DNA from: a virus
Lineage: Duplodnaviria > Caudoviricetes
Direction: 5' to 3' (one strand)
Length of the DNA: 58,289 bases
Virus record (IMG/VR): IMGVR_UViG_3300027513_000017
Location: 1-58,289 of that record
Positions 1 to 56,740 of this stretch are shown in pieces. Numbering within the stretch: position 1 is the stretch's first letter; the number at the start of each line of letters is the position of its first letter. Below the pieces are notes generated by a model, which searched no databases, was not told where the DNA came from, and saw only the letters and a program-made list of their open reading frames with translations. The position numbers and the translations under genes were made by a program.

Positions 1-158
1 AGAACGGGCAGATTGTTCCGTTAGGTTTGGATGAGCAGGACACGCCTCCGGTACTGACGGCAATCGTCAGAGGCCGGAAGATGCCGGTGCGTAACTCATC
101 GGGTGTTTATGGAGGTGAGGAGTGGTCTAACAATCCGGTGGATATTCTCCGTTTCATA
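1..158. repeat. Terminal direct repeat, left copy (circular-assembly overlap)
   Basis: 1-158 matches 58132-58289 except T32 vs C58163; lies inside a coding sequence. Confidence 0.95.
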
Positions 159-3100
159 ATGACGGACTCCAAGTTTGTGAATGTTGATGAAGCATTCATG
201 GACGACGCGGTTCTCCATCTAACCGCGCAACATTGCGACGCTCCGATTCTCGATGATTCGGGTTCACAGATTATCGTTATCCCAAGCATTGAGGAACCGA
301 TCGCAGGTGATGCGTTTTCCCGGTATCGAGCAACAGGAATCTATACGCCTCGTTATTTCCTCTACAACAATCTTGGAGACGGATCGCTCATTCCCGAGTT
401 TGTGGATGGGCCATATATCGGTATCGATCAGGGTGGTTCACTTCCCGATCCGAGCGTATCAACTGATCCGACGTTTCTAAGTCAGAAACCCTTAATCAAG
501 AGATACACGTTCAACTCAACGATTAGTGAGGAAGTTAGGGCCACAGACTTCATCAACAAGACTCTCCTCCCGTCCTTCAAAGGCTTTTTAAGAGTCAACA
601 AGAACGGGAAGATAGAGATCCGCTCAGAAGTCTCTTCCGACTCCACGAGACTGCGAACGGCAACGGCAGTGGGAGCGACTTCAATCCCTGTTTTAGACGT
701 GACTCCGTGGAAGACAGGGCCGGAACTCTTGAAGGGGCGAGTCCTACTAGGCTTTGGATTAACTACCAGTGAGGTTAGAACGCCCTCCGCCGCTGATTAT
801 TCCACGTCAGGTAACGCGATAACCCTCACGGCGTCGGGAAGCGGCACAGTGACCGCTACAGCGTCAGGAGCCACGCTCTCAGGTGGGTCTACATCTGTTC
901 CAGCAACGGGGACGATAACGATCGGCGGCGGTTCAACTGTTCCGGCTGGCGTGAGCTATCAGAATGACTTCGGGATGACGACTGGAGCGGGCGGAGCGAT
1001 TACCGTCACGTCAGGAGGTTGGGGTAATTCCGGTGCCGCAACAGTTGCATCAATCGCACTGGCTGATGACGGTCAATTTGGTGGCGTGTTAGGACTTGGC
1101 ACGATTGTTTTGGGCTTAGGCTATTCGGACTCTCCGACCACTAACACCGATCTGGAATATGGACTGCAGTTGAATGGGCCATCAGGCATTGCGAGTTTGA
1201 TTATCAGTGGGGCCGCTCCGGTCGCCTTGATTCCCTGCTCTCCTGGAGATCGCTTTGATGTGATCAAACAGGATGGAGTGATTCGCTTCACTAAGAACGG
1301 AGCAATCATCAATACCGGCAGCATAGCCATTCCCGCTGTCACGGGAACGCTCTACGGGAACGTGGTCGGATTCACCAATGGCGCGAATCTTACCTCTGCG
1401 GAAATGGGCACAGCAGATGTAGCAGGCGGCACGGTCAACATTGCTATTGGCGGAATTGCAGTTAGCTACGAGTTTGGGGCCGACGTGATCGAAGGCATCG
1501 CAGCCATGATCGCCGCGTACATCAATGCTAATCAGAGATTGAATAAGTTTATTCGGGCGACGTGGGATTCAAGCAATCCTGAAGTAATCACGATTACTTG
1601 TCTACACGGGGCGTTGACTGTCCCTGCTTTACTCAAAGCTCACACAACGGCACTAGCCGATCCTACTTCTGCACCCACAGCAGCAGGATCGTCAGGCGGA
1701 TCACTTCCGGCAGGCACTTATTTTCTGGCGTATTCAGATGTGAATGCGATCGGTGAGACTTATCTAACTGCTTCGGCTTCTGTAGTCGTGACGGCTAATC
1801 AGAAGATCGACGTGAGTTCCATTGCTGCGTTAGTCGGCACCTCGAGAAATTACTATCTGAGTGAGAGTGCAGGATCGACAAATCTCCGTTTCGTTGCTAA
1901 CCGCACAAACAACACTAATTTCTCGATCACTGATGTTCCTGAAGTCGGGGCCGCGCAGTCTCCAACCTGGAACCAGACCGCAGAGGAACTATTAAGAGTT
2001 GCGAAGTCCTTTGCTACTAATTCACAGGATATTTATCCCGAGTGGAAAGCATCGTTCGGGGTAACGATGAGCGACACTTATCTCCCGACTGTTTTGAATG
2101 GTCATAAGTATCAGGTCACTACCGCAGGCACGACAGGCACCACAGAACCCACTTGGCCCACAACCGCAGGAGGTACTGTTGCTAGTGGGACAGCGGTCTT
2201 CACCGAAACAGGATCGACTGTCTTAGCGCAAGCCGGACTATCACGATCGAATGTAATTAAGAACTCCTTCAAGTGGCCTTTGGGTTCAAGACAGTCGACA
2301 GTCAACCAGATCAAGACTGCATATCGCTCGGCTAAGGATGACTTCGCCCTTCAACCTCTGACAGTTAATGACTACACGCATCAAGCCTATGTAAAGAAGA
2401 AATATCCGTTGGAGATCGATCTAAGTGGTGTCGATAACTTCAACCAGGCTAAACGTCTGTGCAATTTCAATCTCTCGAAGTATCGGGAAGGCGATCATTT
2501 CCATGCTCTCGGTACTGGGCCGTCAGGTCTGGTACTCGAAGAAGGAGACGTGATTTGCACGTCTGATGATTCAGGCGGGTTGATAAACGTAGTAACAAGA
2601 ATTGAAGAATTAAGAATCACCAAAGACCATGACGTTTATATAACGCAGGCGCGTAGATACTCCACTTTAATGTTTTCTGATGACGTGGGTTCGCATCGGA
2701 TTCCTCTAGCTTCCACTCTCAGATTCGCAGCCACTAAAGACACACTAGCAGAGTTCATCGACACGATAGCTATTCGAGATTCAGATGCGATGGTGCCCGG
2801 CTTCAAGATTGCTCTGTCTCACGATCTAGCTGTCGAAGGAGACTGGCGTGGAGCTTCTGTGTGGGCCGACTTTGGTGATGGCTACAAGTTCTTAAAGAAG
2901 CATGACGTAGCAGCGACAATTGGCACGTGTGACACCACACTCGGAGCCGTCAGCGACATAGAAGTCTTCGATGAGATCAATACAGTTGATTTCACCCTTG
3001 ACTATGAGGATGGACAGTTTGGCGATGACATGACTGAAGCCGAGTTGCTAGCTAACCCTTATCGTCGGCTGTTCTTAATTGGTGATGAGTATGTACAAGC

Positions 3101-4262
3101 AGGCACTAACGTCTCGAATGGAAGCCGCTCGTACACTGAATCGGACTTCTTACGCGGTAGGTTTGAAACTGATGATGATGTGATTCATTCAGCGAGTGAG
3201 CGCGTGGTCTATATGAATGGGGCAGAGATATTTGTTGAACTGCCGATCTCTCAAGTGGGCATTCCGTTCAATATAAAAGTTGTCACTACGAATCAGGACG
3301 TTGCAGATGCGACAGCGATTCCGTTTACGTGGGCGGGGAATAATGTTCGACCGCGCAAGATTACAGAGATCTACATTGCCAAAGACGGATCGAATGATTG
3401 GTTAATTCAATTCTTGGGCCATCCGCGACCGTTTGAAATGCCCGCTGAGTATGTGGTTGAGATTTGGGAAGACCACACGCGAAACGATCCGACCAAACTA
3501 AAACGGAGACTCCCCGTTACGGAGGGAACGACGCACGCGTGCTTGCTGAATTCGTCAGGGTCAACCTATGTGCAGGAAGACGATCCCGAAGGTGTACCAG
3601 GGGGTCTTATTCGCGTTGAAGATACTCACGCTGATAAGAACAATCTACACGGAGACGGCATTGCGGATGTCAACGGTCAAACGCTCGAAGACATCAAGAA
3701 CACGTTCACTCGTTTCAGTTTCACGTTGGCGATTGAAGACTCAGGTACTGGCATAGGTAAATCGGTGAGTGCTGGACTGATTAGCGAAGATGGAGTCACA
3801 ACACCACCGACATTCAATACAAGCCTCTCGCCCGCTGTAGTGAGGTTGTCCGATGACACAGGAACAGTAAACGAGATTGTTTCTACCTACGGCACAACAG
3901 TCTCATCCAGCACACTAGGAAGTGGTGGTGATATTTCCCAACGGTACGCCATCATTCTGAGCGGCACTGAGTATCGCGTTTATCGAGACTATGAGGCCGC
4001 AGGCGGGCAAGTGCCGTTAGCAATTATCCCTGCTCCAAGCGCAGGGTTCCCGTTCCCTCTGCGATTGAAAATGAACATCGACCAAATCAACGGCGATGAA
4101 GTACACGTCACTAACGTCACCGCAGGCGGCGCACTTAGACCAACAACCATCTATTCCTTGGCGGAACAACTGGAGGATTTCGGGGTTGAGCAGAGCATGT
4201 TATTTCTCCGCATCTACCAGAAAGGCAGATATGCAGACATCGGAGATCCGGTTGACTTCTAA
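3..4262 (+). CDS. Tail hub / host-specificity (central tail fibre-like) protein, 3' part; gene starts at 57153 and spans the origin (about 1746 aa)
   Basis: In frame with the ORF from ATG 57153 (58158 equals position 27); follows tape measure and distal tail genes; NPVDILR, LEEGDVI, LRGRFET and C-terminal YSLAEQLEDFG motifs typical of J/GTA-type hub proteins. Confidence 0.85.
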   Translation, partial: NGQIVPLGLDEQDTPPVLTAIVRGRKMPVRNSSGVYGGEEWSNNPVDILRFIMTDSKFVNVDEAFMDDAVLHLTAQHCDAPILDDSGSQIIVIPSIEEPIAGDAFSRYRATGIYTPRYFLYNNLGDGSLIPEFVDGPYIGIDQGGSLPDPSVSTDPTFLSQKPLIKRYTFNSTISEEVRATDFINKTLLPSFKGFLRVNKNGKIEIRSEVSSDSTRLRTATAVGATSIPVLDVTPWKTGPELLKGRVLLGFGLTTSEVRTPSAADYSTSGNAITLTASGSGTVTATASGATLSGGSTSVPATGTITIGGGSTVPAGVSYQNDFGMTTGAGGAITVTSGGWGNSGAATVASIALADDGQFGGVLGLGTIVLGLGYSDSPTTNTDLEYGLQLNGPSGIASLIISGAAPVALIPCSPGDRFDVIKQDGVIRFTKNGAIINTGSIAIPAVTGTLYGNVVGFTNGANLTSAEMGTADVAGGTVNIAIGGIAVSYEFGADVIEGIAAMIAAYINANQRLNKFIRATWDSSNPEVITITCLHGALTVPALLKAHTTALADPTSAPTAAGSSGGSLPAGTYFLAYSDVNAIGETYLTASASVVVTANQKIDVSSIAALVGTSRNYYLSESAGSTNLRFVANRTNNTNFSITDVPEVGAAQSPTWNQTAEELLRVAKSFATNSQDIYPEWKASFGVTMSDTYLPTVLNGHKYQVTTAGTTGTTEPTWPTTAGGTVASGTAVFTETGSTVLAQAGLSRSNVIKNSFKWPLGSRQSTVNQIKTAYRSAKDDFALQPLTVNDYTHQAYVKKKYPLEIDLSGVDNFNQAKRLCNFNLSKYREGDHFHALGTGPSGLVLEEGDVICTSDDSGGLINVVTRIEELRITKDHDVYITQARRYSTLMFSDDVGSHRIPLASTLRFAATKDTLAEFIDTIAIRDSDAMVPGFKIALSHDLAVEGDWRGASVWADFGDGYKFLKKHDVAATIGTCDTTLGAVSDIEVFDEINTVDFTLDYEDGQFGDDMTEAELLANPYRRLFLIGDEYVQAGTNVSNGSRSYTESDFLRGRFETDDDVIHSASERVVYMNGAEIFVELPISQVGIPFNIKVVTTNQDVADATAIPFTWAGNNVRPRKITEIYIAKDGSNDWLIQFLGHPRPFEMPAEYVVEIWEDHTRNDPTKLKRRLPVTEGTTHACLLNSSGSTYVQEDDPEGVPGGLIRVEDTHADKNNLHGDGIADVNGQTLEDIKNTFTRFSFTLAIEDSGTGIGKSVSAGLISEDGVTTPPTFNTSLSPAVVRLSDDTGTVNEIVSTYGTTVSSSTLGSGGDISQRYAIILSGTEYRVYRDYEAAGGQVPLAIIPAPSAGFPFPLRLKMNIDQINGDEVHVTNVTAGGALRPTTIYSLAEQLEDFGVEQSMLFLRIYQKGRYADIGDPVDF

Positions 4263-4554: not shown

Positions 4555-4716
4555 ATGGCGGACGACATTAAAGACGTGAGACCAAGACAAGTGACTGACA
4601 TTCGGATTGAACGCGATGGGCCATACGACTTGATTTGCTTCACCTCGGAGTCTCACCCCGAAGAAGAGCCAATGGACTACACCTTAGAGATTTGGAAAGA
4701 CGATAAACGTGGCTGA
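4555..4716 (+). CDS. Small protein paralogous to a segment of the tail hub protein
   Basis: VRPRQVTDIRIERDG...YTLEIWKD aligns with hub VRPRKITEIYIAKDG...YVVEIWED; GAAAGG RBS upstream. Confidence 0.6.
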   Translation: MADDIKDVRPRQVTDIRIERDGPYDLICFTSESHPEEEPMDYTLEIWKDDKRG

Positions 4717-7471
4717 AGGAATAGGACTCACTAAAGAAGTAACTACGCTGCTGACTCCCTCGAAGTACGGGACGGTTCGCGCATGGTTCGACGCCTCACA
4801 AGAATCATTTGCTAACGATGATGCAGTAGCTAACTTCTCTGACTGGTCAGGGAATAATTACGATCTCCTCCAAGCTACGGGAGCGAATAAACCTCTCTTC
4901 AAGCTCAACGCTGCTAATGGGCGTCCAGCGTTGCTCTTTGATGGGGTCAACGACCGGATGGCTACGGCAAGTTTCGGGTCGAGTCCTCAGCCGATAACTA
5001 TCTACCTGGTTGCTAAATCCACAGGGTCAACAGCCGCGCACAGAGTCTTAGCTGATGGTATCGGGGCGAGCAATCGGCATCTCATTTACTCAGCGATCTC
5101 CACCGGACTCCCGACGTTCGGGGCGGGTTCGGCTGTTCAAGGATTTGAAGACTTCGGGGATGACTGGTTCCTGATTACCGCAGTTTTCAACGGCGCAGAT
5201 TCAAAGTTCATCGTTAATGACATTCTCTCTGCTACAGGGAACATCGGCACACAAACACTCACGGGAATAACTCTTGGTTCCGCGCACGATGGATCATCTC
5301 CGTGGGCCGGATACATTGCCCAAGCGATTTACTTTGACGGAACTCTAACCACTGACAGCGATTACACCGTCAGACGAGCCTTGCAAGCGCAGTACAAGAT
5401 TCCTTATTTCGATCCATCTTCGATCTCAGGTCTGCACAGTAAGTACATGGCCGACACGCTGAGACTCCGAGATGGAGAACTCGTAGACGAATGGGAAGAT
5501 ACTGTTAGCGCAAAGAACGTCCTGCAAGCGACAGCAGCCGATCAGCCTGCACTAATCCGTGATGAATTGAATCACCATCCGGTCTTGAGATTTGATGTAA
5601 CTAACTACCTCACGTCTGATTCGTTCACGACGATCAACCAACCAAGAACATTCTTTATAGTCGCTAAGAATAGTTCCACCGCAGCGCATCACGTTTTGTT
5701 TGATGGTGTCTCCGCTCCACCACAAAACCAGATGTACTTTGAGAACTCAACAGGAAAGTTAGTTATCTCTGCGGGTACAGAACTTAAAACTACTTACGGA
5801 GTCGGGACTGACTGGGCGGTGTGGGTAGCGGTCTACAACGGATCGTCGTCGGCCATCTATCAAAACGGGGAGCAGATAGCATCAGGAACGGCAAACACTC
5901 AAGGACTTGATCGGTTCAGAATTGGCGCGCTTCACAACGCCACGTTTCCATTTCTTGGTGACTACTACGCGCTGCTCCATTGGGACGGCGATCTGTCCGC
6001 TTCAAACAGTCTCCTTATCATTGTCGGGTGGCTAAGAGTCCTTACTGCACTTTACGATCCGATTCCTCTGCCGACGTTACCAGCCATCTTCTTTGCTGAT
6101 TACGATCTGAATCAACCGAACTATGGATCATACTCAGGTGATTCCATTCGGGTAGTAGATTCAGGAGCCGGAATACATGAGATTGGATTCGATGCGAATG
6201 GGAAACTAGACCGAGCACAGGCAGATGCCATCGAACCGGATCTAAAAGTAACAATCATTTATGACAAGTCGGGAAACGGGCGGAACGCGACGGCAACAGG
6301 TGGTGACTGGCTGTTGAAGTGGGACGTTCGCGGCGTTCCTTACCTCGAAGCGCAACACGTTGACGCTCGCTTTAAGACTGCCTCAACGTACAGTTGGGCC
6401 GCTCCAAAAGTGTTTTCCGTCGCTTCGACCAACGACGATGAGACGAACACTTATCTATGGGACTTGGGTGGCAATTTCTTTGCCTACAACGCGACCACAG
6501 AAGCAGTCTATGACTTACCTACATATCCACCGAACTTAGGGTTTGCTTATAACGGGACGCAGTTGTTTTCTCCGGTCTTCACGCCTGACAGTTTTCCTCT
6601 TTACACGAATGAGACGGCACCAGGACTACATCATCGCTATGTAAAGTTCCAAGCAGGCAATGATGAACTGTGGGCCGACGGTGCGCTACTCGTAACCGCT
6701 GGCAATGCAGGAGACACGGGACGCACAGGAGCAATCTGCATTGGCAACTTTGATACAGGAGGCTTTGGCGGCCTACAGCGTTACTACGATCTCAAGGTTG
6801 TCGAAGGCGCGATCACCGACGCTAATCGAGATACGATCATCGCTTATCAACAAGAGAACTCGCAGTGTAATCAGGAACACGTTTGCGTCGTACTTGGTGA
6901 CTCACTCGCCTATGGATATGACGGAGGATCGATCTACAGCGCACCGTTGCTAGGGAGCCTCAGCGATCATCTGCAAGACGCGTTAGGGATGGAGTGGAAC
7001 GTCTGGAACATGGGCCGGACAGGTGATACCACTGGAGAAGTCATCAGCAGTGGGATTCTGGACTATGCGATTGAAAAGTATCGTCCGGGTAAGTTGAACA
7101 AAGTCATTCTCAATGGTTGCTTTAACGACTTCAATGATGATGTTGCGGTAGCGACGACTAAAGCAAACTTGATAACCACTATCTCGACTCTACAAGCCGC
7201 AGGGTTTGAAGTTTATCTAAGGACACCCCCGCGATCGGCATTCACAAGCGAGAACTGGAAAGGCTATGACGCTTACCGTGCGGGCTTGATTACGTGGATG
7301 CTAGCGGGAACGTCCGGCGCGAATGGGATTGTTGATGAGACTGGAGATCCAAACATAGGAACCAGTGGAGACCCAACCAATACGACTTACTTCTTTAGTG
7401 ACAAGATCCACGGCAAGAGTCCTTACTATCAGATCGTTGCTGACTTAGCGTTACCGTTCATTGTTCCGTAG
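4709..7471 (+). CDS. Tail-associated protein with repeated LamG/concanavalin-like domains and a C-terminal SGNH/GDSL hydrolase
   Basis: Repeated W-x-D/DxSGN modules; GDSL block (LGDSLA), G and N blocks, DKIH catalytic motif. Confidence 0.8.
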   Translation: MAEGIGLTKEVTTLLTPSKYGTVRAWFDASQESFANDDAVANFSDWSGNNYDLLQATGANKPLFKLNAANGRPALLFDGVNDRMATASFGSSPQPITIYLVAKSTGSTAAHRVLADGIGASNRHLIYSAISTGLPTFGAGSAVQGFEDFGDDWFLITAVFNGADSKFIVNDILSATGNIGTQTLTGITLGSAHDGSSPWAGYIAQAIYFDGTLTTDSDYTVRRALQAQYKIPYFDPSSISGLHSKYMADTLRLRDGELVDEWEDTVSAKNVLQATAADQPALIRDELNHHPVLRFDVTNYLTSDSFTTINQPRTFFIVAKNSSTAAHHVLFDGVSAPPQNQMYFENSTGKLVISAGTELKTTYGVGTDWAVWVAVYNGSSSAIYQNGEQIASGTANTQGLDRFRIGALHNATFPFLGDYYALLHWDGDLSASNSLLIIVGWLRVLTALYDPIPLPTLPAIFFADYDLNQPNYGSYSGDSIRVVDSGAGIHEIGFDANGKLDRAQADAIEPDLKVTIIYDKSGNGRNATATGGDWLLKWDVRGVPYLEAQHVDARFKTASTYSWAAPKVFSVASTNDDETNTYLWDLGGNFFAYNATTEAVYDLPTYPPNLGFAYNGTQLFSPVFTPDSFPLYTNETAPGLHHRYVKFQAGNDELWADGALLVTAGNAGDTGRTGAICIGNFDTGGFGGLQRYYDLKVVEGAITDANRDTIIAYQQENSQCNQEHVCVVLGDSLAYGYDGGSIYSAPLLGSLSDHLQDALGMEWNVWNMGRTGDTTGEVISSGILDYAIEKYRPGKLNKVILNGCFNDFNDDVAVATTKANLITTISTLQAAGFEVYLRTPPRSAFTSENWKGYDAYRAGLITWMLAGTSGANGIVDETGDPNIGTSGDPTNTTYFFSDKIHGKSPYYQIVADLALPFIVP

Positions 7472-7489
7472 GACTGACAGCGTTATAAT
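7461..7489 (+). promoter_or_regulatory. Sigma70-like promoter for a two-gene moron (likely leaderless mRNA)
   Basis: TTGTTC-17 bp-TATAAT; ATG begins 8 nt downstream at 7497 with no SD. Confidence 0.55.
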
Positions 7490-7496
7490 TCAGGGC

Positions 7497-7775
7497 ATGA
7501 AAACGCTAACCCTTCAGAGTGGTACAGGCCAAACCGTAGACGTTCAACGCCCTTGCGATCTGCACGGAACTAACATGATCATCACTCAAACAATGAGTGG
7601 GCGTGAGTATGTTGATGTTAGTTGGAAATGCGAGATCGCTGGATGTGAATACGTCGTGCGGTATGAAGTTCCACCTGAGACCGCTTTCCCGAATACCTTT
7701 CCAAAAGAGACGCTAATGAGCGAGACGCTTTCGTTTGGCCGACGCGCTCCTATGCATACACTCTGGCCCTGCTAA
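7497..7775 (+). CDS. Hypothetical protein (Cys/His-containing)
   Basis: ORF directly after the promoter; CxxH and CxxxxC. Confidence 0.5.
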   Translation: MKTLTLQSGTGQTVDVQRPCDLHGTNMIITQTMSGREYVDVSWKCEIAGCEYVVRYEVPPETAFPNTFPKETLMSETLSFGRRAPMHTLWPC

Positions 7776-7780
7776 GCAAA

Positions 7781-8158
7781 ATGCAAAGACGCTCCTTCAT
7801 CGGTGCTTTAATAGGTGGTCTAGCGGCCCTGCCGTTAGTGAATCGTTTTGTGTCGGCGGCTCCGACAGAATCGGACCGTTATGTGATGGACGCTGTTCAT
7901 TTGAACGATGCTGACTACGGAAGAATGGTAGAAAGCTGGCTTGACCGCTCAGGCAATGGAAACCACCTCATACAGAACGACGTTGTGAAGCGACCACAGT
8001 ACCGCGTTGAGGTTCGCGGAATCCATGATAGTGATGACAGCGCACCAAGACGCGTTTTCCTCGTTGACGAACCTCGCGTCACTTACACCGCCAAGATGCA
8101 GGAAATGGACTTCGGTTACACTCAAGCCGAAGTTTCCCTCTACGTAGTTCCTCTCTAA
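7781..8158 (+). CDS. Twin-arginine (Tat) signal protein carrying tail-protein-like fragments
   Basis: MQRRSFIGALIGGLAALP signal; WLDRSGNGNHLIQ and TYTAKMQEMDFG segments resemble the neighbouring tail proteins. Confidence 0.65.
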   Translation: MQRRSFIGALIGGLAALPLVNRFVSAAPTESDRYVMDAVHLNDADYGRMVESWLDRSGNGNHLIQNDVVKRPQYRVEVRGIHDSDDSAPRRVFLVDEPRVTYTAKMQEMDFGYTQAEVSLYVVPL

Positions 8159-8225
8159 AACTTAAATATCTTTCCAGTTGTAGTCTGTCCTCGCAGTTAT
8201 CCAGTCTGCTTTGGAAGGTGTTTAC

Positions 8226-11200
8226 ATGGCCGTTTGCACAGTTACAGGAATAACTCAAGGTCTTGCTCTGAACTCACTCACGGGTTTAGTTGAGTTCGTC
8301 CCCGTTGCAGGCGTCAAAATCTTCGTTAAGAAGATCAATCTTTCCGGCACAATAATCCAATACAGAGAAAAGAAAGTCGCTACCTCAAACTCTCTCGGTG
8401 AGGTCGAGTTTGAGCTTCCCCGTGCTTGCAACGCACTGATTGAGGGGCCATTCATAATCGGGTCAACCGACTTCTCAAGTGGAGTGTGGGTATCAATCCC
8501 TGACGCTGCTACGGCAGACTTAGAAGACTTGGGTGAGGCTGTTGTATTAGTTCCTAATGCAATGGCCGAACATCTAGCGGCGGCTGATCCTCATGCTCAA
8601 TATCTTCTAGCCGCAGAAGGGGCCGCGTTAATCACGGCTCACGAAGCAGCGGTTAATCCACATCCGACATATCTAACGCAAGCCGAAGGCGATGGCCTAT
8701 ATGGGCCAAAACAAGACTTCATAGTTGGGGATTACGCATCACTAGCACTTGCGGTGGCAGGGGCGACGGCGGTAGGCGGAACGCTGATCATTAACTCAGC
8801 GGCGACTTGTCCGACGAACTTAACGGTTCCGGCAGATGTCACTTTGCAGTTCACGCGCAAGGGTTCAATCTCGATTACTACAGGCGCAACGCTCACTATC
8901 GTTGGTCCAATTCAAGCAAGTCCTGTTCAAATCTTTAGTAATGCCGTCAGTGGACAGGGAACGGTTTCTTTCGCAGGCAACACGTCGTTAGAAAAGGTTT
9001 ACCCGCAATGGTGGGGCGCAGTCGGTGACGGATCAACTGACATTCGTGCAGCGGCTCAGGCAGCTCTCGACGCGGTGGGAACAGCGGGGGGCGGTTCGGT
9101 ACATTTCATTGCCGCCTCAAGCGGTTATTACACGACCGGATCGCTCCGCCCGTCATCGAACACCACTGTTTCAGGAGACGGCTATCTCTCGCAAATCAAA
9201 TGCCCTACTGCGGGCTGGACGTTATCGTATCCAACGAACTACGGCATCATCAACATTGACCGGAAATCGAATGTTCGCGTCACAGGTCTGAGGATTACCG
9301 GAACCAACTCAGTCGCTACCGCAACCACAGCTCCAAAACTCATTTTCCTTGATGGAACACTAGCAAGCCCGATAACAAACATTCAGATCGACCACAATTC
9401 TTTCGACACGACAGTTGATGAGGGCATTTGGCAGGGTGGCGCTCAGGCTTACATTACCAAGATAGATATTTCAAACAACTACTTTACCAACATTGCCTAC
9501 AAGGGAACGGCCTACGGTGGCCTGCCGACGATTCAGTTCAACGCTGAAGAAGGCACGATCTCCAATAACCGTTTTTATCAAGTAGGGATGGCGATCGGGG
9601 CTTCAGGCGCGAGAATCACGATTACAGGAAACGTAGTAAAGGATGTCTCAGCCAACGCGATTTCTATTGGAGATGACACAGAGATCGGCGTCACTACTAT
9701 TACCGGAAACACCGTCGAGTTTAATGAGCAGGCCTCGGGAAGTTCGCGCTCTGGCATATTGCTAGGTGGAGGCGTAACGAATCGATCAGCAGTAGTAAGC
9801 GGCAATATGGTTCGACTCATAGGCACGGCGGGAATAGGCAGCGCACGTTGTTATTACGTTGAAAATATTGGCGATGCTTTGGTGGTGGGTAATTGGGCGG
9901 AGATTCAGGTTCGGGGCAGAGGATTTGTAGTTGTAGGAACGGCGGCGGGGTCAACTGTTGACCTTAGATCCAACACCGTGAAGATCGTCTCTGAAAGTGG
10001 AACGTCGCTAGCTTTTAACGCTCGGCCAAATGGTGGCGGACAGACTCTCAACTTAATCTCTTCTGACAATCATGTATACGGCATCAGCGGAGAAGGTCAG
10101 GGATCGTTTGCCTACGACTACAGAGACGCTGGAGGTGGAACGCTTAATTCGGTTTCACAAGGGGATTGTGCTAGCGGGGGATACATTGCCACAGGGTCTA
10201 ATCAAATCTACCAGGCCGCAAACCTGAATCTCTCTAACGTCCCTGTCTACGACAATGCGAGTATTACCGCTTATAGCGCGTTCTTAAGTAACCCTTTACT
10301 TCGCACGCTAAGTATTGCTCCACCAGTCAGCACTCAGACCATCGCTTCAGGAGTTATCACAATCACCGGAGCGGGAGTTAGTATCGCAAACAGACAAACT
10401 CGGCTCCGCATTGATACCGAGAGCGCGGCGGCGAGTGACGATCTGGACACAATCAACGGCGGGCTAGATGGTGACATTCTTATCTTACAGACCATAGTTA
10501 GCACCAGAGATGTCGTGGTTAAGGACAACACTGGAAACATTCTCTGCGGCTCAAATGTGACACTAGGCACTACGAGTGATCGACTAGTCCTTCTATATGA
10601 CGGAGGTCTAAGTAAGTGGGTACAACTCGCTAGAAGTATCGGCGGCGCGTTTCAGATCACCTCGGCGGGCACTGACTACGCTACTAAGGCGTACATCCTA
10701 AGAAATAGCAGTGGCACGGTCTTGCAAACTGTCACCAGCGATGGGCGGACTTACATCGGTGCTGACACGGGGACAGACAGCAACCTCGTTGTCACGAATC
10801 CGTCGGGCTCTAGCAAGGTCTTGTTAGCAATGAAAGATTTGAATGCTACTGGCACCCCCGAGCTAACTTTTGCGGGGGGAAGTAGCGCGGTTAGTATTTA
10901 CCTAAGCGGAAGCAGCGGCCTAATAAATTTCGGTAACTCTGGAGTTCAAACCCAACAGGTTGTCTTAAACACAGCAAATAACATTCTTAGTTTTGGTGGA
11001 GCGGCGTCTGCGTCCTTTCCAGGTCTCAAGCCAAGTTCCACTACACTCCGCGTTCGACTCGCCAACGACTCAGCCGATGCGCCGTTCTCCGCATCTAACG
11101 CTACCTTCTCAGGGTACATCTCCAACACCGCTCCAGTAACTAAGACAGCAGACTTCACTTGGGCCGCTACTGAGAATTGGATCATTGCTGACAAGGCGGC

Positions 11201-11417
11201 GGGAACACTCACTGCGACACTCCCCGCAGCCGCATCCTTCACTGGTCGGACTCTTGTAATCAAAACCATTCAAGCGCAGACCGTTGTGAGCGCGAGTTCC
11301 AATGTGGTCCCGCAAGTTGGCGGTGCGGCAGGAACGGCGATACTTGCCGCCACAGCGGGCAAATGGGCGCGACTCATTTCAGACGGCTCAAATTGGATTG
11401 TAATGGAGAGTAATTAA
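8226..11417 (+). CDS. Tail fibre/tailspike with pectin-lyase-like right-handed beta-helix (putative depolymerase)
   Basis: HxAAxDPHxQYL repeats; WWGAVGDGSTD..AAQAALDA motif; many I/V-x-G/N-N beta-helix repeats; W..ISDGSNWIV C-terminus; GGAAGG RBS. Confidence 0.85.
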   Translation: MAVCTVTGITQGLALNSLTGLVEFVPVAGVKIFVKKINLSGTIIQYREKKVATSNSLGEVEFELPRACNALIEGPFIIGSTDFSSGVWVSIPDAATADLEDLGEAVVLVPNAMAEHLAAADPHAQYLLAAEGAALITAHEAAVNPHPTYLTQAEGDGLYGPKQDFIVGDYASLALAVAGATAVGGTLIINSAATCPTNLTVPADVTLQFTRKGSISITTGATLTIVGPIQASPVQIFSNAVSGQGTVSFAGNTSLEKVYPQWWGAVGDGSTDIRAAAQAALDAVGTAGGGSVHFIAASSGYYTTGSLRPSSNTTVSGDGYLSQIKCPTAGWTLSYPTNYGIINIDRKSNVRVTGLRITGTNSVATATTAPKLIFLDGTLASPITNIQIDHNSFDTTVDEGIWQGGAQAYITKIDISNNYFTNIAYKGTAYGGLPTIQFNAEEGTISNNRFYQVGMAIGASGARITITGNVVKDVSANAISIGDDTEIGVTTITGNTVEFNEQASGSSRSGILLGGGVTNRSAVVSGNMVRLIGTAGIGSARCYYVENIGDALVVGNWAEIQVRGRGFVVVGTAAGSTVDLRSNTVKIVSESGTSLAFNARPNGGGQTLNLISSDNHVYGISGEGQGSFAYDYRDAGGGTLNSVSQGDCASGGYIATGSNQIYQAANLNLSNVPVYDNASITAYSAFLSNPLLRTLSIAPPVSTQTIASGVITITGAGVSIANRQTRLRIDTESAAASDDLDTINGGLDGDILILQTIVSTRDVVVKDNTGNILCGSNVTLGTTSDRLVLLYDGGLSKWVQLARSIGGAFQITSAGTDYATKAYILRNSSGTVLQTVTSDGRTYIGADTGTDSNLVVTNPSGSSKVLLAMKDLNATGTPELTFAGGSSAVSIYLSGSSGLINFGNSGVQTQQVVLNTANNILSFGGAASASFPGLKPSSTTLRVRLANDSADAPFSASNATFSGYISNTAPVTKTADFTWAATENWIIADKAAGTLTATLPAAASFTGRTLVIKTIQAQTVVSASSNVVPQVGGAAGTAILAATAGKWARLISDGSNWIVMESN

Positions 11418-21912: not shown

Positions 21913-22647
21913 ATGAGCACGAAACAGCAAGCGTTACAAACCACGTCACCTCAGCTTCCATCGGATTTAGCGGCGTATGCCAGGATCATTAGTGATGCCG
22001 CTTCCAATCCTGATGTCGATGTAAACAAGCTGGAAAAGCTCCTCGATATGCAGGAGCGGATACTAACCCGAAATGCGGAAATGGCTTTCAATGCCGCGAT
22101 GACGAAAGCACAAAGTGAAGTCAAGCGCATAGCTGCTGATGCTTCCAATCCGCAGACCCGAAGCCGCTACGCTTCTTATGCGGCTCTCGACCGAGTTCTT
22201 CGACCTGTATACACCGAGAACGGATTTGCTCTCAGCTTCAATACCGGCGATTCACCGCCTGACTACGTGCGCGTTGTTTGTGACGTGTCACACGCGGGCG
22301 GCTTTAGTCGGCAGTACCAGATTGATATGCCCGCCGACGGTAAAGGAGCAAAGGGCGGCGACGTAATGACCAAGACCCACGCGGTGGGCGCTGGAATGTC
22401 CTATGGAATGCGCTACTTGTTGAAGATGGTGTTTAACGTTGCTGTGGGAGAAGACGACGTTGACGGAAACGAAACGCAACCACTCATCACCGAGAAGCAG
22501 GCGGCTGACCTCAAGGCGTTAGCGGAAGAAGTGAAAGCTGACATTCCAAAATTCTGCGCGTATTTCAAAGTAGAAAAGCTGGCTGATATTCCGGCTGGAA
22601 AATATATCAGTGCGGTGACTGCGCTACAGAGAAAGAGAGAGAAGTAA
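21913..22647 (+). CDS. erf: ERF-family single-strand annealing protein
   Basis: KLEKLLDMQER..AFNAAM..Q..YA....RP...GF..F...H..G....GMSYGMRY...EDDVDG; precedes exonuclease and SSB. Confidence 0.85.
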   Translation: MSTKQQALQTTSPQLPSDLAAYARIISDAASNPDVDVNKLEKLLDMQERILTRNAEMAFNAAMTKAQSEVKRIAADASNPQTRSRYASYAALDRVLRPVYTENGFALSFNTGDSPPDYVRVVCDVSHAGGFSRQYQIDMPADGKGAKGGDVMTKTHAVGAGMSYGMRYLLKMVFNVAVGEDDVDGNETQPLITEKQAADLKALAEEVKADIPKFCAYFKVEKLADIPAGKYISAVTALQRKREK

Positions 22648-54289: not shown

Positions 54290-54316
54290 ACAACTTAATC
54301 CTGAGTGATTCCTTGT

Positions 54317-54352
54317 GAGTCCAGTTCTCTTGAGCTGGGCTTTCTTGTTTTT
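54317..54352 (+). terminator. Hairpin plus U tract directly before the tape measure start codon
   Basis: GAGTCCAGTTC-tctt-GAGCTGGGCTT then TCTTGTTTTT-ATG. Confidence 0.5.
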
Positions 54353-56740
54353 ATGGCAGACGATCTTTCATTACTGTTTCGACTGCGCGCGCAGAACCAA
54401 GCCTCACCCGCAATCAAGCAGGTGCAGGGCGATGTCTCTAGACTCACCAAGACAACCTCCACAGAGTTCAACGCCATGCAGCAGGTCACTACCTCTGCAC
54501 TGGGCCGGATCACGTCTTCACTAACTAACTTTTCTTCTCAGATTCCGGTTGTTGGTAATGCCGTATCCGGCCTGTCAGATGAACTGACGACAATGGCAAC
54601 GTCAACAGGGGCATCGGGGAGCCAGTTTGCCGCCCTTGCGGGACCGATTGGGATCGCAGTTACGGTCATCGGAGCACTTACTGGGGCCGCAGTGTTAGGC
54701 GGTAAGGCTTTATTTGATCTAACAGTAACGACCGCAGACTTTCAGGGGAAGCTATTTGATCTTGGTCAGCAAGTCGGGGTGAGCGTCGAGACTCTTTCCA
54801 CGCTGGACATTATTGCTACGCAGACGGGCGGCAGTATTGAAACGGTCACAGCAAGCCTCGGAATCTTTCAGAAGACACTAGAAGCGGCGCAAGATCCAAC
54901 CTCAAAAGAAGCCGAACTATTAGCCGAACTCGGAATTACTTCAAGTGATACCGAAGTCGCTTTAAGACAAGCACTCAAGGCGCTTTTTGATCTAGGTGAA
55001 GGATCGGAGCAGACAGCCAAGAGTCTCGAGTTGTTCGGGCGTGGTGGCCGATTTGTTAATGCCATCATGAAAGAGAGCGGCGGCAATATCGACGTGCTCA
55101 TGGAGAAGTATCGTGACCTCGGAATCCTCATCACCACAGACGTAGCCTCCGCGTCGGATCAATTCAACGACGACCTCGACACGATCAATCGACAGGTAAG
55201 AGCACTCACGGCAGAGATCGGCAACGAGTTGATGCCGACCGTGTTGGCGGCGATTCAGCAGATAGGTCAATTCTTAGAGCAGAATCGTGGAGTCCTGGCG
55301 AATTGGGTCACGGACGTTGAAGACGCCATCAGGGGGGTATCAAGGTTCGCTGATGCTATCTATCCGTTAGTCGATGCAATCACCGCGCTCGTGGTGGTTC
55401 TCGAACGGGCCAACCTCTTACAAGGAACAATCGGCTCGCTTATCGACGCCGCGCAACTACTCGGGCAGAACCCAGAGATTGCCCCGCTCAAGATTCCCGA
55501 TCTTGCGGTCCCGATTCGGCCCAGTACGACTCTGCCAGGATCTATTTCAGCCCCTAAGAAATCGGGTAAATCAGAAGCTGATGCTTCTCTCCAATTACTA
55601 AAGCAACTTCAGACAGAGATGTTGCGACTTGAAGATGCAACGAAGACTCAAATTGTAGCGGCTGAATTACTGGACGAGAAGTACAAGAACATCAATCCAG
55701 AGATTAAGAGACAGATTGAGCTGTTGGCCCGCCTGATTGATACCAAGAAGGATCAGCAAGAAGTAGATGAGCAAATAGAAGCGGCGGCGAAGGAATTAAA
55801 GCAGGCCATCGACGCAGAGGTTAAGTCGCTTATCTCGTTTATCGAAGCGCAGAGATTAACGATTAGAGGAACACAGTCAGCTATTGACGCGGCAGATGAA
55901 TATATTTTGCGGTTTGACAATCTCAGCGGGGCAATGGATGAGGTAATTCAGGCCCATCTGCGATTTCAAGCCATCCTCATTGACTCATCCAAACACGCCC
56001 AGCAATTAGCCGAAGACTTAGCCCGAGTTGCAGAAATCACTCCACCCATCGGTGGTACTCCACCGTTTGACGGAACTACCGTTCCCGAACCTGGCACCGT
56101 CCCGATTGACATTGAGGGTGAGATTGGCCCACCACCTGAGTTAACGATTTGGGAAGAAGCGATCGGGTCTCTCCAAGATCGGATGGTGAACTTCTCTGAC
56201 TTCCTCGGCGGCACGTTTATCGACTCCCTCCACGGTGTGGCCGACGCGCTCGCGCAAGGCATTGAAGCATGGGCTTTATACGGCGGCTCGTTTGGTCAGG
56301 CAATGAAGCAAGCCCTAGCTGCACTTGCCGCGAAGATTGCCGCAGAAGCCACGTTACAAGCCGCGTTGCATGCTGCTTATGCCATCGCATCTCTCGCCTT
56401 TGGAGACTTTGGTAGCGCAGCAAGGCACGGAATTGCAGCGGCGAAGTTTGCGGCTATTGCTGGAGGCGCGGCGTTAGGCGCGCGCGCGTTAGCAGGCGGC
56501 GCATTCGATCAAGGCGGTAGTGGTTCATCATCAGGGAGTGGGAATCGATCCACCTCACGCAATAACACACAGAACCAGAATGAGAAGTTGGCACCTATCG
56601 ACATTCCGCGTAACGCTCAAGGCCAACATTTGACCGTGAAGATTCAACCGCCTGAAGGATGGGTGGGCCAAGAGTTTCGTAAGGACTACAACTTAAACGG
56701 AGTGACCCGACTAACGATCTTGACTGACGGACAGAGTTAA
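54353..56740 (+). CDS. Tape measure protein
   Basis: Ala/Leu-rich helical protein of about 795 aa; L.F.L.A.NQAS, ELFGRGG motifs; canonical position. Confidence 0.9.
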   Translation: MADDLSLLFRLRAQNQASPAIKQVQGDVSRLTKTTSTEFNAMQQVTTSALGRITSSLTNFSSQIPVVGNAVSGLSDELTTMATSTGASGSQFAALAGPIGIAVTVIGALTGAAVLGGKALFDLTVTTADFQGKLFDLGQQVGVSVETLSTLDIIATQTGGSIETVTASLGIFQKTLEAAQDPTSKEAELLAELGITSSDTEVALRQALKALFDLGEGSEQTAKSLELFGRGGRFVNAIMKESGGNIDVLMEKYRDLGILITTDVASASDQFNDDLDTINRQVRALTAEIGNELMPTVLAAIQQIGQFLEQNRGVLANWVTDVEDAIRGVSRFADAIYPLVDAITALVVVLERANLLQGTIGSLIDAAQLLGQNPEIAPLKIPDLAVPIRPSTTLPGSISAPKKSGKSEADASLQLLKQLQTEMLRLEDATKTQIVAAELLDEKYKNINPEIKRQIELLARLIDTKKDQQEVDEQIEAAAKELKQAIDAEVKSLISFIEAQRLTIRGTQSAIDAADEYILRFDNLSGAMDEVIQAHLRFQAILIDSSKHAQQLAEDLARVAEITPPIGGTPPFDGTTVPEPGTVPIDIEGEIGPPPELTIWEEAIGSLQDRMVNFSDFLGGTFIDSLHGVADALAQGIEAWALYGGSFGQAMKQALAALAAKIAAEATLQAALHAAYAIASLAFGDFGSAARHGIAAAKFAAIAGGAALGARALAGGAFDQGGSGSSSGSGNRSTSRNNTQNQNEKLAPIDIPRNAQGQHLTVKIQPPEGWVGQEFRKDYNLNGVTRLTILTDGQS

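What the first reader, a model, noticed from the sequence alone, without database searches (positions are those of the whole stretch)
7461..8158. Moron encoding a Tat-signal chimera built from fragments of the phage's own tail proteins
Seen: a consensus-like promoter drives a leaderless ORF followed by a 125-aa protein with an RRSFI Tat motif. Its middle (VESWLDRSGNGNHLIQNDVVKRPQY) matches the repeat module of the adjacent LamG/SGNH protein (VANFSDWSGNNYDLLQATGANKPLF; IYDKSGNGRNA). Its end (YRVEVR...RRV...TYTAKMQEMDFGYTQAEVSLYV) matches hub C-terminal segments (YVVEIW...KRRLPV; IYSLAEQLEDFGVEQSMLFLRI). Inference: an exported or membrane-tethered tail mimic, possibly for superinfection exclusion, as a decoy, or for anchoring tail assembly at the membrane.
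Basis: partly seen in the sequence, partly recalled or inferred. Interest (0 to 1): 0.7.

Follow-up and report, generated by a model that had tools for sequence, protein, structure and literature searches.

The report
Phage Tat-signal protein with LamG start
A small gene between two tail-fibre genes of an uncultured groundwater/sediment phage encodes a protein with a textbook twin-arginine export signal followed by only the opening strands of a LamG lectin fold; it is probably sent to the host periplasm, and its function is untested.

Summary
The 125-aa ORF (7781-8158) is real. It has phage-typical codon usage in frame and a canonical Tat class I signal (QRRSFI, uncharged h-region, Arg in the c-region, VSA|A).

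Residues 45-77 match the start of LamG modules very strongly: 49.5 bits, E 9e-15 against a module profile, and 87 database proteins at E<=1e-3. They match the family consensus better than the neighbouring LamG/SGNH protein's own repeats do. Residues 78-125 are not detectably LamG.

The hub resemblance shrinks to one 23-residue strand-helix motif at the hub's extreme C-terminus. It is borderline: hhalign P 0.06-0.075, 1-2 of 500 shuffles, NCBIfam E 0.018, BLASTP not significant. The modelled hub C-terminal domain is itself a ConA-like lectin fold, the structural class I recall LamG belonging to, so both resemblances may reflect one fold class.

Not supported:
- an own promoter (only a TATAAT, which codes conserved Val-Ile-Ile)
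- a leaderless upstream ORF
- deviant composition
- recent copying from the phage's own genes (no DNA similarity)

The gene is absent from relatives, and sister strains swap the region at a breakpoint at 8153. Best reading: a Tat-exported accessory protein of the swappable receptor-binding cassette. Function is inferred only.

The parts
7781..8158 (+). ORF P0001, 125 aa including the signal peptide; stop TAA at 8156-8158
   Evidence: Per-codon log-likelihood is +0.146 in frame, against -0.33 and -0.40 out of frame; 22 other ORFs of the phage average +0.139 (sd 0.068). The identical protein is on record from 2 contigs.
7781..7858 (+). Predicted Tat class I signal peptide (residues 1-26): Q-R-R-S-F-I, h-region GALIGGLAALPLV, c-region NRFVSA with an Arg, predicted cleavage VSA|AP
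   Evidence: Sequence. Hand rule and hydropathy. The consensus Z-R-R-x-Phi-Phi, the AXA-like site and the positively charged c-region are taken from passages of PMC13673990. No TatP or SignalP was available. Pfam and NCBIfam listed no signal model.
7913..8011 (+). LamG-module start motif (residues 45-77, DYGRMVESWLDRSGNGNHLIQNDVVKRPQYRVE)
   Evidence: 49.5 bits, E 8.8e-15 against a profile of 86 modules; 49.9 bits against a 248-position profile of 70 modules. 360 repeat hits in the proteins cover residues 51-60. phrog_10356 E 5.4e-4.
8012..8155 (+). C-terminal 48 residues (78-125), not detectably LamG
   Evidence: -0.9 bits alone against the LamG profile. The full protein scores 49.6 bits against a mean of 49.8 for 200 versions with a shuffled C-terminal part. 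In-frame codon score is +0.154. No LamG remnant in other frames.
8069..8140 (+). Borderline hub-like motif (residues 97-120, EPRVTYTAKMQEMDFGYTQAEVSL)
   Evidence: hhalign P 0.075 and 0.062. Reached by 2 of 500 and 1 of 500 shuffles. NCBIfam GTA_megatron E 0.018, 12.8 bits against a cut-off of 800. phrog_4271 E 0.061. All of these place P0001 residue ~122 some 15-19 residues before the hub C-terminus.
8153..8153 (.). Strain-level mosaic breakpoint at the last sense codon of P0001
   Evidence: Contigs of two runs (X3 and X4, different studies) match from 8153 onward. Upstream they carry other sequence, 65 and 255 loose letters respectively (tables 7 and 8).
7461..7775 (+). Upstream ORF P0005/P0122: 104 aa from TTG 7461, or 92 aa from ATG 7497. 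Carries CxxH...CxxxxC, a possible zinc ribbon.
   Evidence: Variants P0093 and P0095 (89 and 91% identity) extend upstream and have Val at the ATG-7497 position. Codon score +0.071. No family hit.
7484..7489 (+).
   Evidence: It lies inside the codons for the V-I-I that is conserved in the variants. The promoter scan does not list it.
4709..7471 (+). P0002: three LamG modules (residues 23-233, 252-433, 507-715) plus an SGNH/GDSL esterase domain
3..4262 (+). P0004: C-terminal 1419 residues of the megatron-like hub. The gene starts at 57153 and runs over the contig ends.
   Evidence: The full-length form P0096 has 1746 aa. The contig ends overlap.
3270..4259 (+). Hub C-terminal 330 residues, modelled as a ConA-like lectin beta-sandwich
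   Evidence: AlphaFold2 with 22 sequences gives pLDDT 83.6 and pTM 0.79. Foldseek against PDB finds Emp47p CRD at E 5.5e-6 (TM by target 0.56), then legume lectins, VIP36, calreticulin and GH16; 208 matches at E<=0.001.
8226..11417 (+). P0003, tailspike-like protein immediately downstream
   Evidence: phrog_7458 tail spike, E 1.7e-7.

Best explanation
P0001 is a genuine accessory gene that is native to this phage and lies in the swappable receptor-binding region of its tail operon.

What the sequence shows:
- The product carries a class I twin-arginine signal peptide.
- The 99-residue mature part opens with the signature first strands of a LamG (ConA-like) lectin module.
- It then departs from LamG and may close with a strand-helix element of the type that ends the hub's own ConA-like domain.

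What is inferred:
- The protein is made late, together with the tail genes. Translation may be coupled to the upstream small Cys/His protein.
- It is exported folded by the host Tat system and released into the periplasm after cleavage at VSA|A.
- There it acts on the cell envelope in a way tied to the phage's receptor specificity. The most likely action is to bind or mask an envelope or glycan component, so that the infected or lysing cell stops taking up or inactivating phage of the same specificity. That would be an exclusion or progeny-protection role like those of Llp and Cor.

The architecture is shown by the sequence. Export and function are not shown.
For: REAL GENE
- In-frame codon score is +0.146. 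All three parts are positive (+0.135, +0.143, +0.154) and the off-frames are negative. The phage's other ORFs average +0.139.
- The only difference seen in another run's contig over 7628-8142 is synonymous (7954 C>T, GGC>GGT).

TAT SIGNAL
- QRRSFI fits Z-R-R-x-Phi-Phi. It is followed by 14 uncharged residues (mean hydropathy 1.64), an Arg in the c-region and VSA|A (motif definitions from passages of PMC13673990).
- Such N-termini are rare: 2 of 927 candidates in this genome, 2 hits in total across 20 shuffled genomes, and 4 hits (3 ORFs) in 37 other viral loci totalling 562 kb, against 5 hits in one shuffle of each.
- P0065, an unrelated metagenomic protein, has the same layout: a Tat signal, then SGNGNH at the same distance. 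BLASTP E 3e-15, 28 of 76 identical.

LamG START.

PART OF THE RECEPTOR-BINDING CASSETTE
- It lies between a 3xLamG-SGNH protein and a tailspike.
- It is absent downstream of the hub in 7 related viral loci and 2 MAG loci.
- Sister strains break homology at 8153.

PRECEDENT (recalled, not tested): T5 llp and T1/phi80 cor are exclusion genes encoded beside receptor-binding genes.
Against: - No homologue of the whole protein exists in 1.84 billion representatives, so conservation cannot vouch for function.
- 99 residues are too few for a full LamG sandwich. AlphaFold2 without an alignment gives pLDDT 38.7, and the ESM Atlas model has pLDDT 0.58, so a stable fold is not shown.
- No own promoter or terminator was found. 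Late co-expression with tail genes is unusual for classical exclusion genes.
- There is no lipobox, unlike Llp and Cor.
- Passages of PMC13673990 say most Tat signal peptides can also drive Sec transport, so the export route is not settled.
- No RNA contig covers the ORF. The one RNA-library run covers only 7242-7392 and 7414-7564.
- No Pfam, PHROG function or PADLOC hit gives a function.
Confidence: 0.4

Rival explanations
1. A remnant of module shuffling. P0001 is the 5' end of a once full-length, Tat-exported LamG gene. Its core was lost by recombination in the hypervariable fibre region, leaving an ORF with no function or a decaying one.
For: - Only 33 residues score as LamG and the rest does not.
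- The start motif is consensus-like, as expected for a recent derivative.
- In sister strains the sequence just before 8153 reads, by my hand translation of the 30 loose letters in P0001's frame, as V-E-A-W-L-K-G-L-T-G. It is followed by the shared Leu codon and stop. This resembles the end of the LamG module consensus (..VEGYLAAKYGI), so a LamG-type gene seems to end at the same stop there.
- No homologue exists elsewhere.
- The predicted fold is poor.
Against: - The C-terminal 48 codons have normal in-frame codon usage (+0.154, against about -0.27 and -0.29 for off-frames of real genes).
- No LamG remnant lies in other frames.
- The Tat signal is intact.
- The ORF is tightly packed in the operon.
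- The identical ORF is present in contigs from several studies.
Confidence: 0.22
2. One reading: a chimera copied from this phage's own LamG/SGNH protein and hub, acting as an exported tail mimic or decoy.
For: - BLASTP against P0002 gives E 0.002, and 0 of 300 shuffles reach the score.
- NCBIfam and PHROG hits fall at the same place.
- ESM Atlas structural neighbours of residues 67-125 include two clusters that carry Rcc01698_C.
Against: - blastn with word size 7 finds no DNA similarity to either gene.
- The LamG motif fits the family consensus better than P0002's repeats do, and identity to P0002 is 22-26%.
- The hub match is not significant pairwise: E 0.40, and 101 of 300 shuffles reach it. 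At profile level it gives P 0.06-0.075 and hhalign probability under 1%.
- The segment YRVEVR/YVVEIW has no support.
Confidence: 0.1
3. A Tat 'hitchhiker' carrier. P0001 supplies the signal peptide that takes the upstream signal-less Cys/His protein P0005 across the membrane as a folded complex.
For: - The two ORFs are 5 nt apart and lie on the same strand.
- P0005 has CxxH...CxxxxC, a possible zinc site. Proteins that bind a cofactor and fold in the cytoplasm are typical Tat cargo (general knowledge; the hitchhiker mechanism appears in the reference list of PMC13673990).
Against: - No evidence of interaction.
- P0005 occurs in variants whose flanks I could not see.
- Zinc binding is only guessed from the spacing of the residues.
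Confidence: 0.1
4. A cytoplasmic tail-assembly or fibre-adaptor protein whose hydrophobic N-terminus is not used for export.
For: - It lies inside the tail operon directly upstream of the tailspike gene.
- It has a weak likeness to the end of the megatron fibre-binding domain, which binds fibre N-termini in RcGTA and phage R4C (passages of PMC7296036 and PMC10276861).
Against: - The N-terminus has every feature of a cleavable Tat signal.
- Relatives with the same hub family lack the gene.
Confidence: 0.08

Closest known systems
Repeated LamG (Laminin_G_3 type, ConA-like) modules of phage tail-fibre proteins and giant bacterial surface proteins
   Same: Residues 45-77 carry the module's most conserved opening motif (V-x-x-W-x-D-x-S-G-N-G-N-H-x-x-Q ... 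R-P) at near-consensus quality.
   Different: Only about 35 of roughly 230 module positions are present. The protein is 99 residues after cleavage and has a Tat signal. All full modules found are internal repeats of proteins of 482-6154 aa, or signal-less tail proteins such as the 240-aa ORF of L052.
Exclusion lipoproteins encoded beside receptor-binding genes (T5 Llp; Cor of T1, phi80 and N15). Recalled from general knowledge, not tested here.
   Same: A small exported protein encoded in the tail-fibre or receptor-binding region and inherited with that module.
   Different: P0001 has no lipobox and a Tat rather than a Sec/Lol route. It has no sequence similarity to any annotated PHROG exclusion family and no own promoter was found.
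C-terminal (fibre-binding) domain of megatron-type baseplate hubs (RcGTA g15, roseophage R4C)
   Same: A 23-24-residue strand-helix motif (P-x-[TV]-x-Y-[ST]-x-x-x-Q-x-[EM]-D-F-G-x-x-Q) in the same register, 15-19 residues from the C-terminus.
   Different: The score is far below family thresholds: 12.8 bits against 800. The rest of the domain is missing. The pairwise match to this phage's own hub is not significant.
Class I Tat substrates of bacteria
   Same: Z-R-R-x-Phi-Phi motif, a moderately hydrophobic h-region, a basic c-region and an AXA-like site.
   Different: P0001 is phage-encoded, tiny and has no cofactor motif. In my reading of the 2026 Tat review, the passages that mention phages name no phage-encoded Tat substrate.

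Membership tests
Tat (twin-arginine) class I signal peptide | Z-R-R-x-Phi-Phi motif at the boundary of the n- and h-regions | tested here: met
   Q-R-R-S-F-I at residues 2-7. The motif definition comes from passages of PMC13673990.
Tat (twin-arginine) class I signal peptide | Uncharged h-region followed by a c-region with an AXA-like signal peptidase I site | tested here: met
   GALIGGLAALPLVN is uncharged, with mean hydropathy 1.64. It is followed by R-F-V-S-A|A.
Tat (twin-arginine) class I signal peptide | Recognition by a curated signal model or a dedicated predictor | tested here: inconclusive
   Pfam and NCBIfam scans at E<=10 list no Tat signal model, but short models are easily filtered out. 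TatP and SignalP were not available.
Tat (twin-arginine) class I signal peptide | Tat-dependent export of the folded protein | not testable with these tools
   Needs a reporter assay in tat+ and tat-deletion cells.
LamG / Laminin_G_3 (ConA-like) domain | N-terminal signature strands of the module | tested here: met
   49.5-49.9 bits on residues 44-78.
LamG / Laminin_G_3 (ConA-like) domain | A complete beta-sandwich of about 150-230 residues that reaches the Pfam threshold | tested here: not met
   No Pfam hit. Residues 78-125 score -0.9 bits. The mature length is 99 residues.
GTA megatron / hub fibre-binding domain | Score over the NCBIfam cut-off (800 bits) or a significant match to the domain | tested here: not met
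   12.8 bits, E 0.018. hhalign probability under 1%.
GTA megatron / hub fibre-binding domain | Local homology of the terminal strand-helix-strand element | tested here: inconclusive
   Reached by 2 of 500 and 1 of 500 shuffles. Three profile libraries agree on the register. BLASTP is not significant.
Moron (independently transcribed accessory gene in a late operon) | Own promoter and terminator, and deviant base composition | tested here: not met
   The scan lists no promoter or terminator at 7400-8230. GC is 0.48-0.52, like the flanks. Codon usage is native.
Moron (independently transcribed accessory gene in a late operon) | Present in some relatives and absent from others | tested here: met
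   0 of 7 related viral loci and 0 of 2 MAG loci have a homologue. There is a strain breakpoint at 8153.
Receptor-linked superinfection-exclusion proteins (Llp/Cor type) | Lipoprotein signal (lipobox Cys) | tested here: not met
   No Cys anywhere in P0001.
Receptor-linked superinfection-exclusion proteins (Llp/Cor type) | Blocks infection by the same phage when expressed | not testable with these tools
   The host is uncultured and unknown. The only lead is a MAG association with Pyrinomonadaceae.

The most novel reading that the evidence does not exclude
P0001 is a working 'mini-lectin'. It would consist of the N-terminal strands and the C-terminal strand-helix of a ConA-like jelly roll, elements that lie side by side in that fold, joined without the core. 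It would be exported by Tat into the periplasm, where it mimics the contact surface of the phage's own tail lectin domains. That would block a receptor or glycan-assembly component from inside, giving a Tat-dependent, non-lipoprotein class of receptor-linked exclusion or progeny-protection factor.

It may be one example of a wider and so far undescribed habit of phages: attaching a conserved Tat leader to fast-changing small periplasmic proteins, as in the four IMG/VR contigs with the MNRRSFITKALAG... leader.
Probability: 0.12. Interest if true: 0.7.

Novelty: new variant of a known kind. Interest (0 to 1): 0.4.

Why it matters
Phage genes for small exported proteins beside receptor-binding genes are known as exclusion factors. 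A Tat-routed one built on a fragment of a tail lectin fold does not appear in the papers my three searches returned (listings and abstracts only), nor in the phage passages of a 2026 Tat review.

If it is functional, it would show that phages can use the folded-protein export route to place tail-like lectin pieces in the periplasm. It would also give a compact handle on what the very conserved LamG opening motif does.

If it is a remnant, it is a clean snapshot of how module shuffling among ConA-like domains in tail-fibre regions creates new ORFs.

One by-product helps annotate this widespread hub family: the C-terminal domain of a megatron-type hub is modelled as a ConA-like lectin.

Tried and rejected
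SEARCHES THAT FOUND NO RELATIVE OF P0001
- No DNA or protein match of the region in 50,697 phage records.
- No relative of P0001, P0002 or P0093 in IMG/VR.
- The tailspike P0003 has only distant relatives there.
- The word-based protein search found only P0001 itself.
- PDB sequence search gave only chance-level hits: Rubisco at E 0.038 and a muramidase at E 1.2. The hub gave none.
- No PADLOC hit.
- PHROG scans of ten other ORFs named only an Erf-like recombinase.
- No tRNA genes.
- P0001 was not found in 2 MAGs and 151 genomes of the same family with this query; nothing rang, so this shows little.
- tblastx between the window and loci L002-L006 found nothing, so those phages are unrelated in the stretches I hold.

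STRUCTURE AND COMPLEX PREDICTIONS
- AlphaFold2 of the mature protein without an alignment gave pLDDT 38.7, which is unusable; no fold search was run on it.
- Complex prediction of P0005 with mature P0001 gave no verdict (score 0.00, controls not run). It is no evidence either way.

PROFILE COMPARISONS
- hhalign of the LamG-module profile against the hub C-terminal domain gave P 0.18. The best pair was the terminal helix of each. This is a positional hint only.
- The 240-aa LamG protein of L052 aligns to P0001 residues 11-123, but only the motif carries score.

ATTEMPTS TO FETCH THE SISTER-STRAIN SEQUENCE
- Exact-pattern scans of viral contigs and metagenome contigs found nothing.

SEQUENCING-RUN COVERAGE
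- Parts of the stretch without cover in runs X2, X3, X4 and X17 prove nothing. The RNA-library contig at 7414-7564 bridges the end of P0002 and the start of P0005, but it may be DNA carried in the library.

- Supplements of the papers were not opened. Domain tables for the megatron in the supplements of PMC7296036 and PMC10276861 might bear on the C-terminal motif.

Full report
SETTING

The window is a whole IMG/VR virus record of 58,289 bases, estimated 86% complete. Its first 30 bases recur at 58,132, so the ends overlap by about 158 bases. A 1746-aa form of the hub protein from a 58,272-base contig spans the join. The genome is therefore probably complete and circularly permuted.

The finding lies in the tail module. 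The gene order is:
- tape measure (54305-56740)
- a megatron-like hub that runs over the contig ends (57153-58289 plus 3-4262, P0004)
- P0002 (4709-7471)
- a small ORF, P0005 (7461 or 7497 to 7775)
- the 125-aa ORF P0001 (7781-8158)
- a tailspike-like protein, P0003 (8226-11417)

P0002 holds three LamG modules and an SGNH esterase domain.

The phage has no close relative among 50,697 phage records. Near-identical DNA occurs in groundwater and freshwater-sediment runs from many studies (laid runs). Hub relatives lie on two contigs binned in Pyrinomonadaceae MAGs. That is only a lead to the host.

THE ORF AND ITS SIGNAL

P0001 begins MQRRSFIGALIGGLAALPLVNRFVSAAP. This fits the general Tat motif Z-R-R-x-Phi-Phi. 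The motif is followed by an uncharged h-region, a c-region with a basic residue, and an AXA-like site (VSA|A). The definitions come from passages of the 2026 Tat review PMC13673990.

I applied a rule of my own, not a validated predictor.
- It picks P0001 and one nested minus-strand ORF out of 927 start-to-stop candidates in the window.
- Twenty shuffled windows gave 2 hits in all.
- Across 37 other viral loci (562 kb) it gave 4 hits (3 ORFs), against 5 hits in one shuffle of each locus.

Codon usage marks P0001 as coding in its own frame and native to the phage. The per-codon score is +0.146 overall. The signal, LamG part and tail score +0.135, +0.143 and +0.154. The off-frames score -0.33 and -0.40. 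The 22 other ORFs tested average +0.139, sd 0.068. GC is flat across the region. A contig from another study covers 7628-8142 with one change, 7954 C>T, which is synonymous (GGC to GGT, Gly58).

THE LamG RESEMBLANCE IS REAL BUT IS NOT A COPY OF THE NEIGHBOUR

HMMER against 1.84 billion representatives gave 88 proteins at E<=1e-3, one of them P0001 itself. Eleven of the 88 reach E<=1e-10.
- Of the 87 others, 86 are 482-6154 aa long. They match several times each on query residues of about 46-80.
- Re-scoring gave 360 repeat hits, all covering residues 51-60 and none past residue 109.

A profile of 86 such modules matches P0001 only at residues 45-77 (49.5 bits, E 8.8e-15). Residues 78-125 alone score -0.9 bits. 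The whole protein scores 49.6 bits, against a mean of 49.8 for 200 versions whose C-terminal part was shuffled.

A 248-position profile of 70 modules finds three full modules in P0002 (112.0, 75.9 and 28.1 bits). In P0001 it finds only positions 15-49 (49.9 bits). P0001's motif is close to the family consensus. Identity to P0002's repeats is 22-26%, and blastn with word size 7 finds no DNA similarity to any other part of the genome. No LamG remnant lies in the other frames of 7400-8300.

THE HUB RESEMBLANCE IS SHORT AND BORDERLINE

- BLASTP against P0004 gives E 0.40 at best, and 101 of 300 shuffles reach the Smith-Waterman score.
- Profile methods all point to one place, however.
  - NCBIfam GTA_megatron: E 0.018, 12.8 bits against a cut-off of 800, P0001 39-122 on profile positions 1199-1282 of 1299.
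  - phrog_4271: E 0.061, P0001 73-122 on 1243-1290 of 1309.
  - hhalign against two alignments of hub relatives: P 0.075 and 0.062, probability under 1%, P0001 97-120 on hub 1706-1729 of 1746.
- Against HMMs of those relatives, residues 78-125 are reached by 2 of 500 shuffles (whole hub) and 1 of 500 (last 110 residues). The whole mature part is reached by 31 of 500, and residues 27-77 by 46 of 500.
- I chose the 78-125 cut after seeing where the LamG match ends, so these figures are somewhat flattering.
- The ESM Atlas model of P0001 (pLDDT 0.58) has, among its ten listed structural neighbours of residues 67-125, two clusters whose members carry Rcc01698_C. TM-scores are low.

A UNIFYING OBSERVATION

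I modelled the hub's last 330 residues with 22 sequences. The model has pLDDT 83.6 and pTM 0.79.

Foldseek places it among ConA-like lectins. The top match is the Emp47p carbohydrate-recognition domain (E 5.5e-6, TM by target 0.56). Legume lectins, VIP36, calreticulin and GH16 enzymes follow, with 208 matches at E<=0.001. That LamG domains belong to the same structural superfamily is recalled knowledge.

They also include its closing strand-helix-strand (residues 292-317).

The best, though non-significant, hhalign pairing of the LamG-module profile with this domain is terminal helix on terminal helix (P 0.18).

So P0001 reads as the opening strands of a ConA-like module joined to something like a closing element, with the core missing. 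Whether it folds is unknown.

THE PROMOTER AND THE 'LEADERLESS' ORF

- TATAAT at 7484-7489 is perfect. The hexamer 17 bases upstream (TTGTTC) matches TTGACA at 3 of 6 positions. The scan lists no promoter or terminator between 7208 and 9428.
- Two variants of P0005 from other samples (P0093 and P0095, 89 and 91% identical) have Val where the window has the ATG-7497 Met. They continue upstream through D-x-V-I-I-Q, which is conserved with the window's frame from TTG 7461. The TATAAT letters encode that V-I-I.
- The TTG overlaps the stop of P0002, and P0001 starts 5 bases after the stop of P0005. The arrangement looks like an operon with coupled translation, not a separate transcription unit.
- A contig from an RNA library spans 7414-7564, but it may be carried-over DNA.
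- Shine-Dalgarno use in this genome is mixed, so its absence before P0001 says little.

DISTRIBUTION

- Seven viral loci with hubs at 46-61% identity (best tblastn segment), and two MAG loci (57 and 34%), have no homologue of P0001 or P0005. The seven viral loci also have no Tat-like ORF downstream of the hub (the MAG loci were not scanned for one).
- One of those loci has a P0002-like protein.
- A relative's hub carries an SGNH domain fused to it (P0099), so modules move around in this region.
- In runs X3 and X4, contigs match the window from 8153 onward and carry other sequence upstream. By my hand translation, and assuming the 30 printed letters abut the junction, these letters read V-E-A-W-L-K-G-L-T-G in P0001's frame. 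The shared Leu codon and stop follow. That resembles the end of the LamG consensus. A LamG-type gene therefore seems to end at the same stop codon in sister strains.

A SECOND TAT-LamG LAYOUT ELSEWHERE

- P0065 (111 aa, from a 1531-base contig, possibly cut short) has a very similar signal and SGNGNH at the same distance from it (BLASTP 3e-15).
- Its leader, MNRRSFITKALAG..., recurs almost unchanged on four IMG/VR contigs, in front of unrelated mature parts of 83-143 aa. Three of the four end in SSASS.
- Those phages show no similarity to this one in the stretches I hold.

MECHANISM

Shown by the sequence:
- a coding ORF
- a Tat-type signal with a cleavage site
- a consensus LamG opening
- a non-LamG tail
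- accessory status, with a strain-level mosaic boundary

Inferred: late co-expression with the tail genes, Tat export, release into the periplasm, and an envelope-directed role tied to receptor specificity.

I rate the propositions as follows:
- real gene: 0.8
- working export signal: 0.7
- true homology of the C-terminal motif with hubs: 0.4
- an exclusion or progeny-protection role: 0.3

The remnant model (0.22) is the main rival.

WHAT IS IN PRINT

My three literature searches (listings and abstracts only) returned no paper on phage-encoded Tat-signal proteins in tail modules. In the Tat review, the passages that mention phages name no phage-encoded substrate.

The megatron's C-terminal part is called the fibre-binding domain in RcGTA and in phage R4C (passages of PMC7296036 and PMC10276861).

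VERDICT

This is an orphan and an unusual variant of the small exported accessory proteins found beside receptor-binding genes. It is of moderate interest until export or a phenotype is shown.

Noticed in passing
window 1-158 and 58132-58289: The first 30 bases recur at 58132, so the contig ends overlap by about 158 bases. The hub gene runs across the join (full form P0096, 1746 aa). The record is probably a complete, circularly permuted genome rather than a linear fragment.
   Followed up: partly
window 3270-4259: The last 330 residues of the megatron-like hub are modelled with pLDDT 83.6 as a ConA-like lectin beta-sandwich. Best PDB matches are the Emp47p CRD, legume lectins, VIP36, calreticulin and GH16. 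The NCBIfam megatron profile stops matching at hub residue 1138, near the start of this domain.
   Followed up: yes
L002 4215-4595; L003 5359-5787; L004 8001-8252; L066 4001-4432: Four IMG/VR contigs carry small ORFs (83-143 aa) with an almost identical Tat-type leader (M-N/T-RRSFITKALAG...) in front of unrelated mature parts. Three of the four end in SSASS. Three of them (L002-L004) sit in clusters of small genes next to a divergently transcribed 331-aa (cut off at the contig end in L002) Cys-containing protein that I took for a head-morphogenesis (SPP1 gp7/Mu F-like) protein from its sequence; no family scan was run on it; L066's neighbours were not looked at. This looks like a conserved export leader on a fast-changing periplasmic protein. 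A fifth locus (L006) was not examined.
   Followed up: partly
window 7461-7775: P0005 has C-x2-H ... C-x4-C and a C-terminal Cys, a possible zinc ribbon. It has no family hit. It is conserved at 89-91% identity in two variants from other samples, which have a different N-terminal start.
   Followed up: partly
window 6953, 7008, 8153, 8606: Contigs of runs X3 and X4 lose similarity to the window at these places. This shows strain-level mosaicism of the fibre and spike region, with a boundary exactly at the end of P0001.
   Followed up: partly
L063 and L064 (MAG contigs): The only hub relatives among 185,579 species genomes lie on contigs binned as Pyrinomonadaceae (Acidobacteriota). In L064, ORFs that look bacterial to me by eye follow soon after the hub, which suggests a prophage or a remnant. 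This is a lead to the host, not proof.
   Followed up: partly
protein P0099 (relative's hub, 2031 aa): A related hub carries an SGNH/GDSL domain (PF13472) fused to it. In the window that domain sits on the separate LamG protein P0002.
   Followed up: no
window 4709-7471: P0002 has three LamG modules (residues 23-233, 252-433, 507-715), not two, before the SGNH domain.
   Followed up: yes
window 21913-22647: An Erf-like single-strand annealing protein (phrog_155, E 1.4e-36). Nine other ORFs I scanned against PHROGs had no family at all.
   Followed up: no
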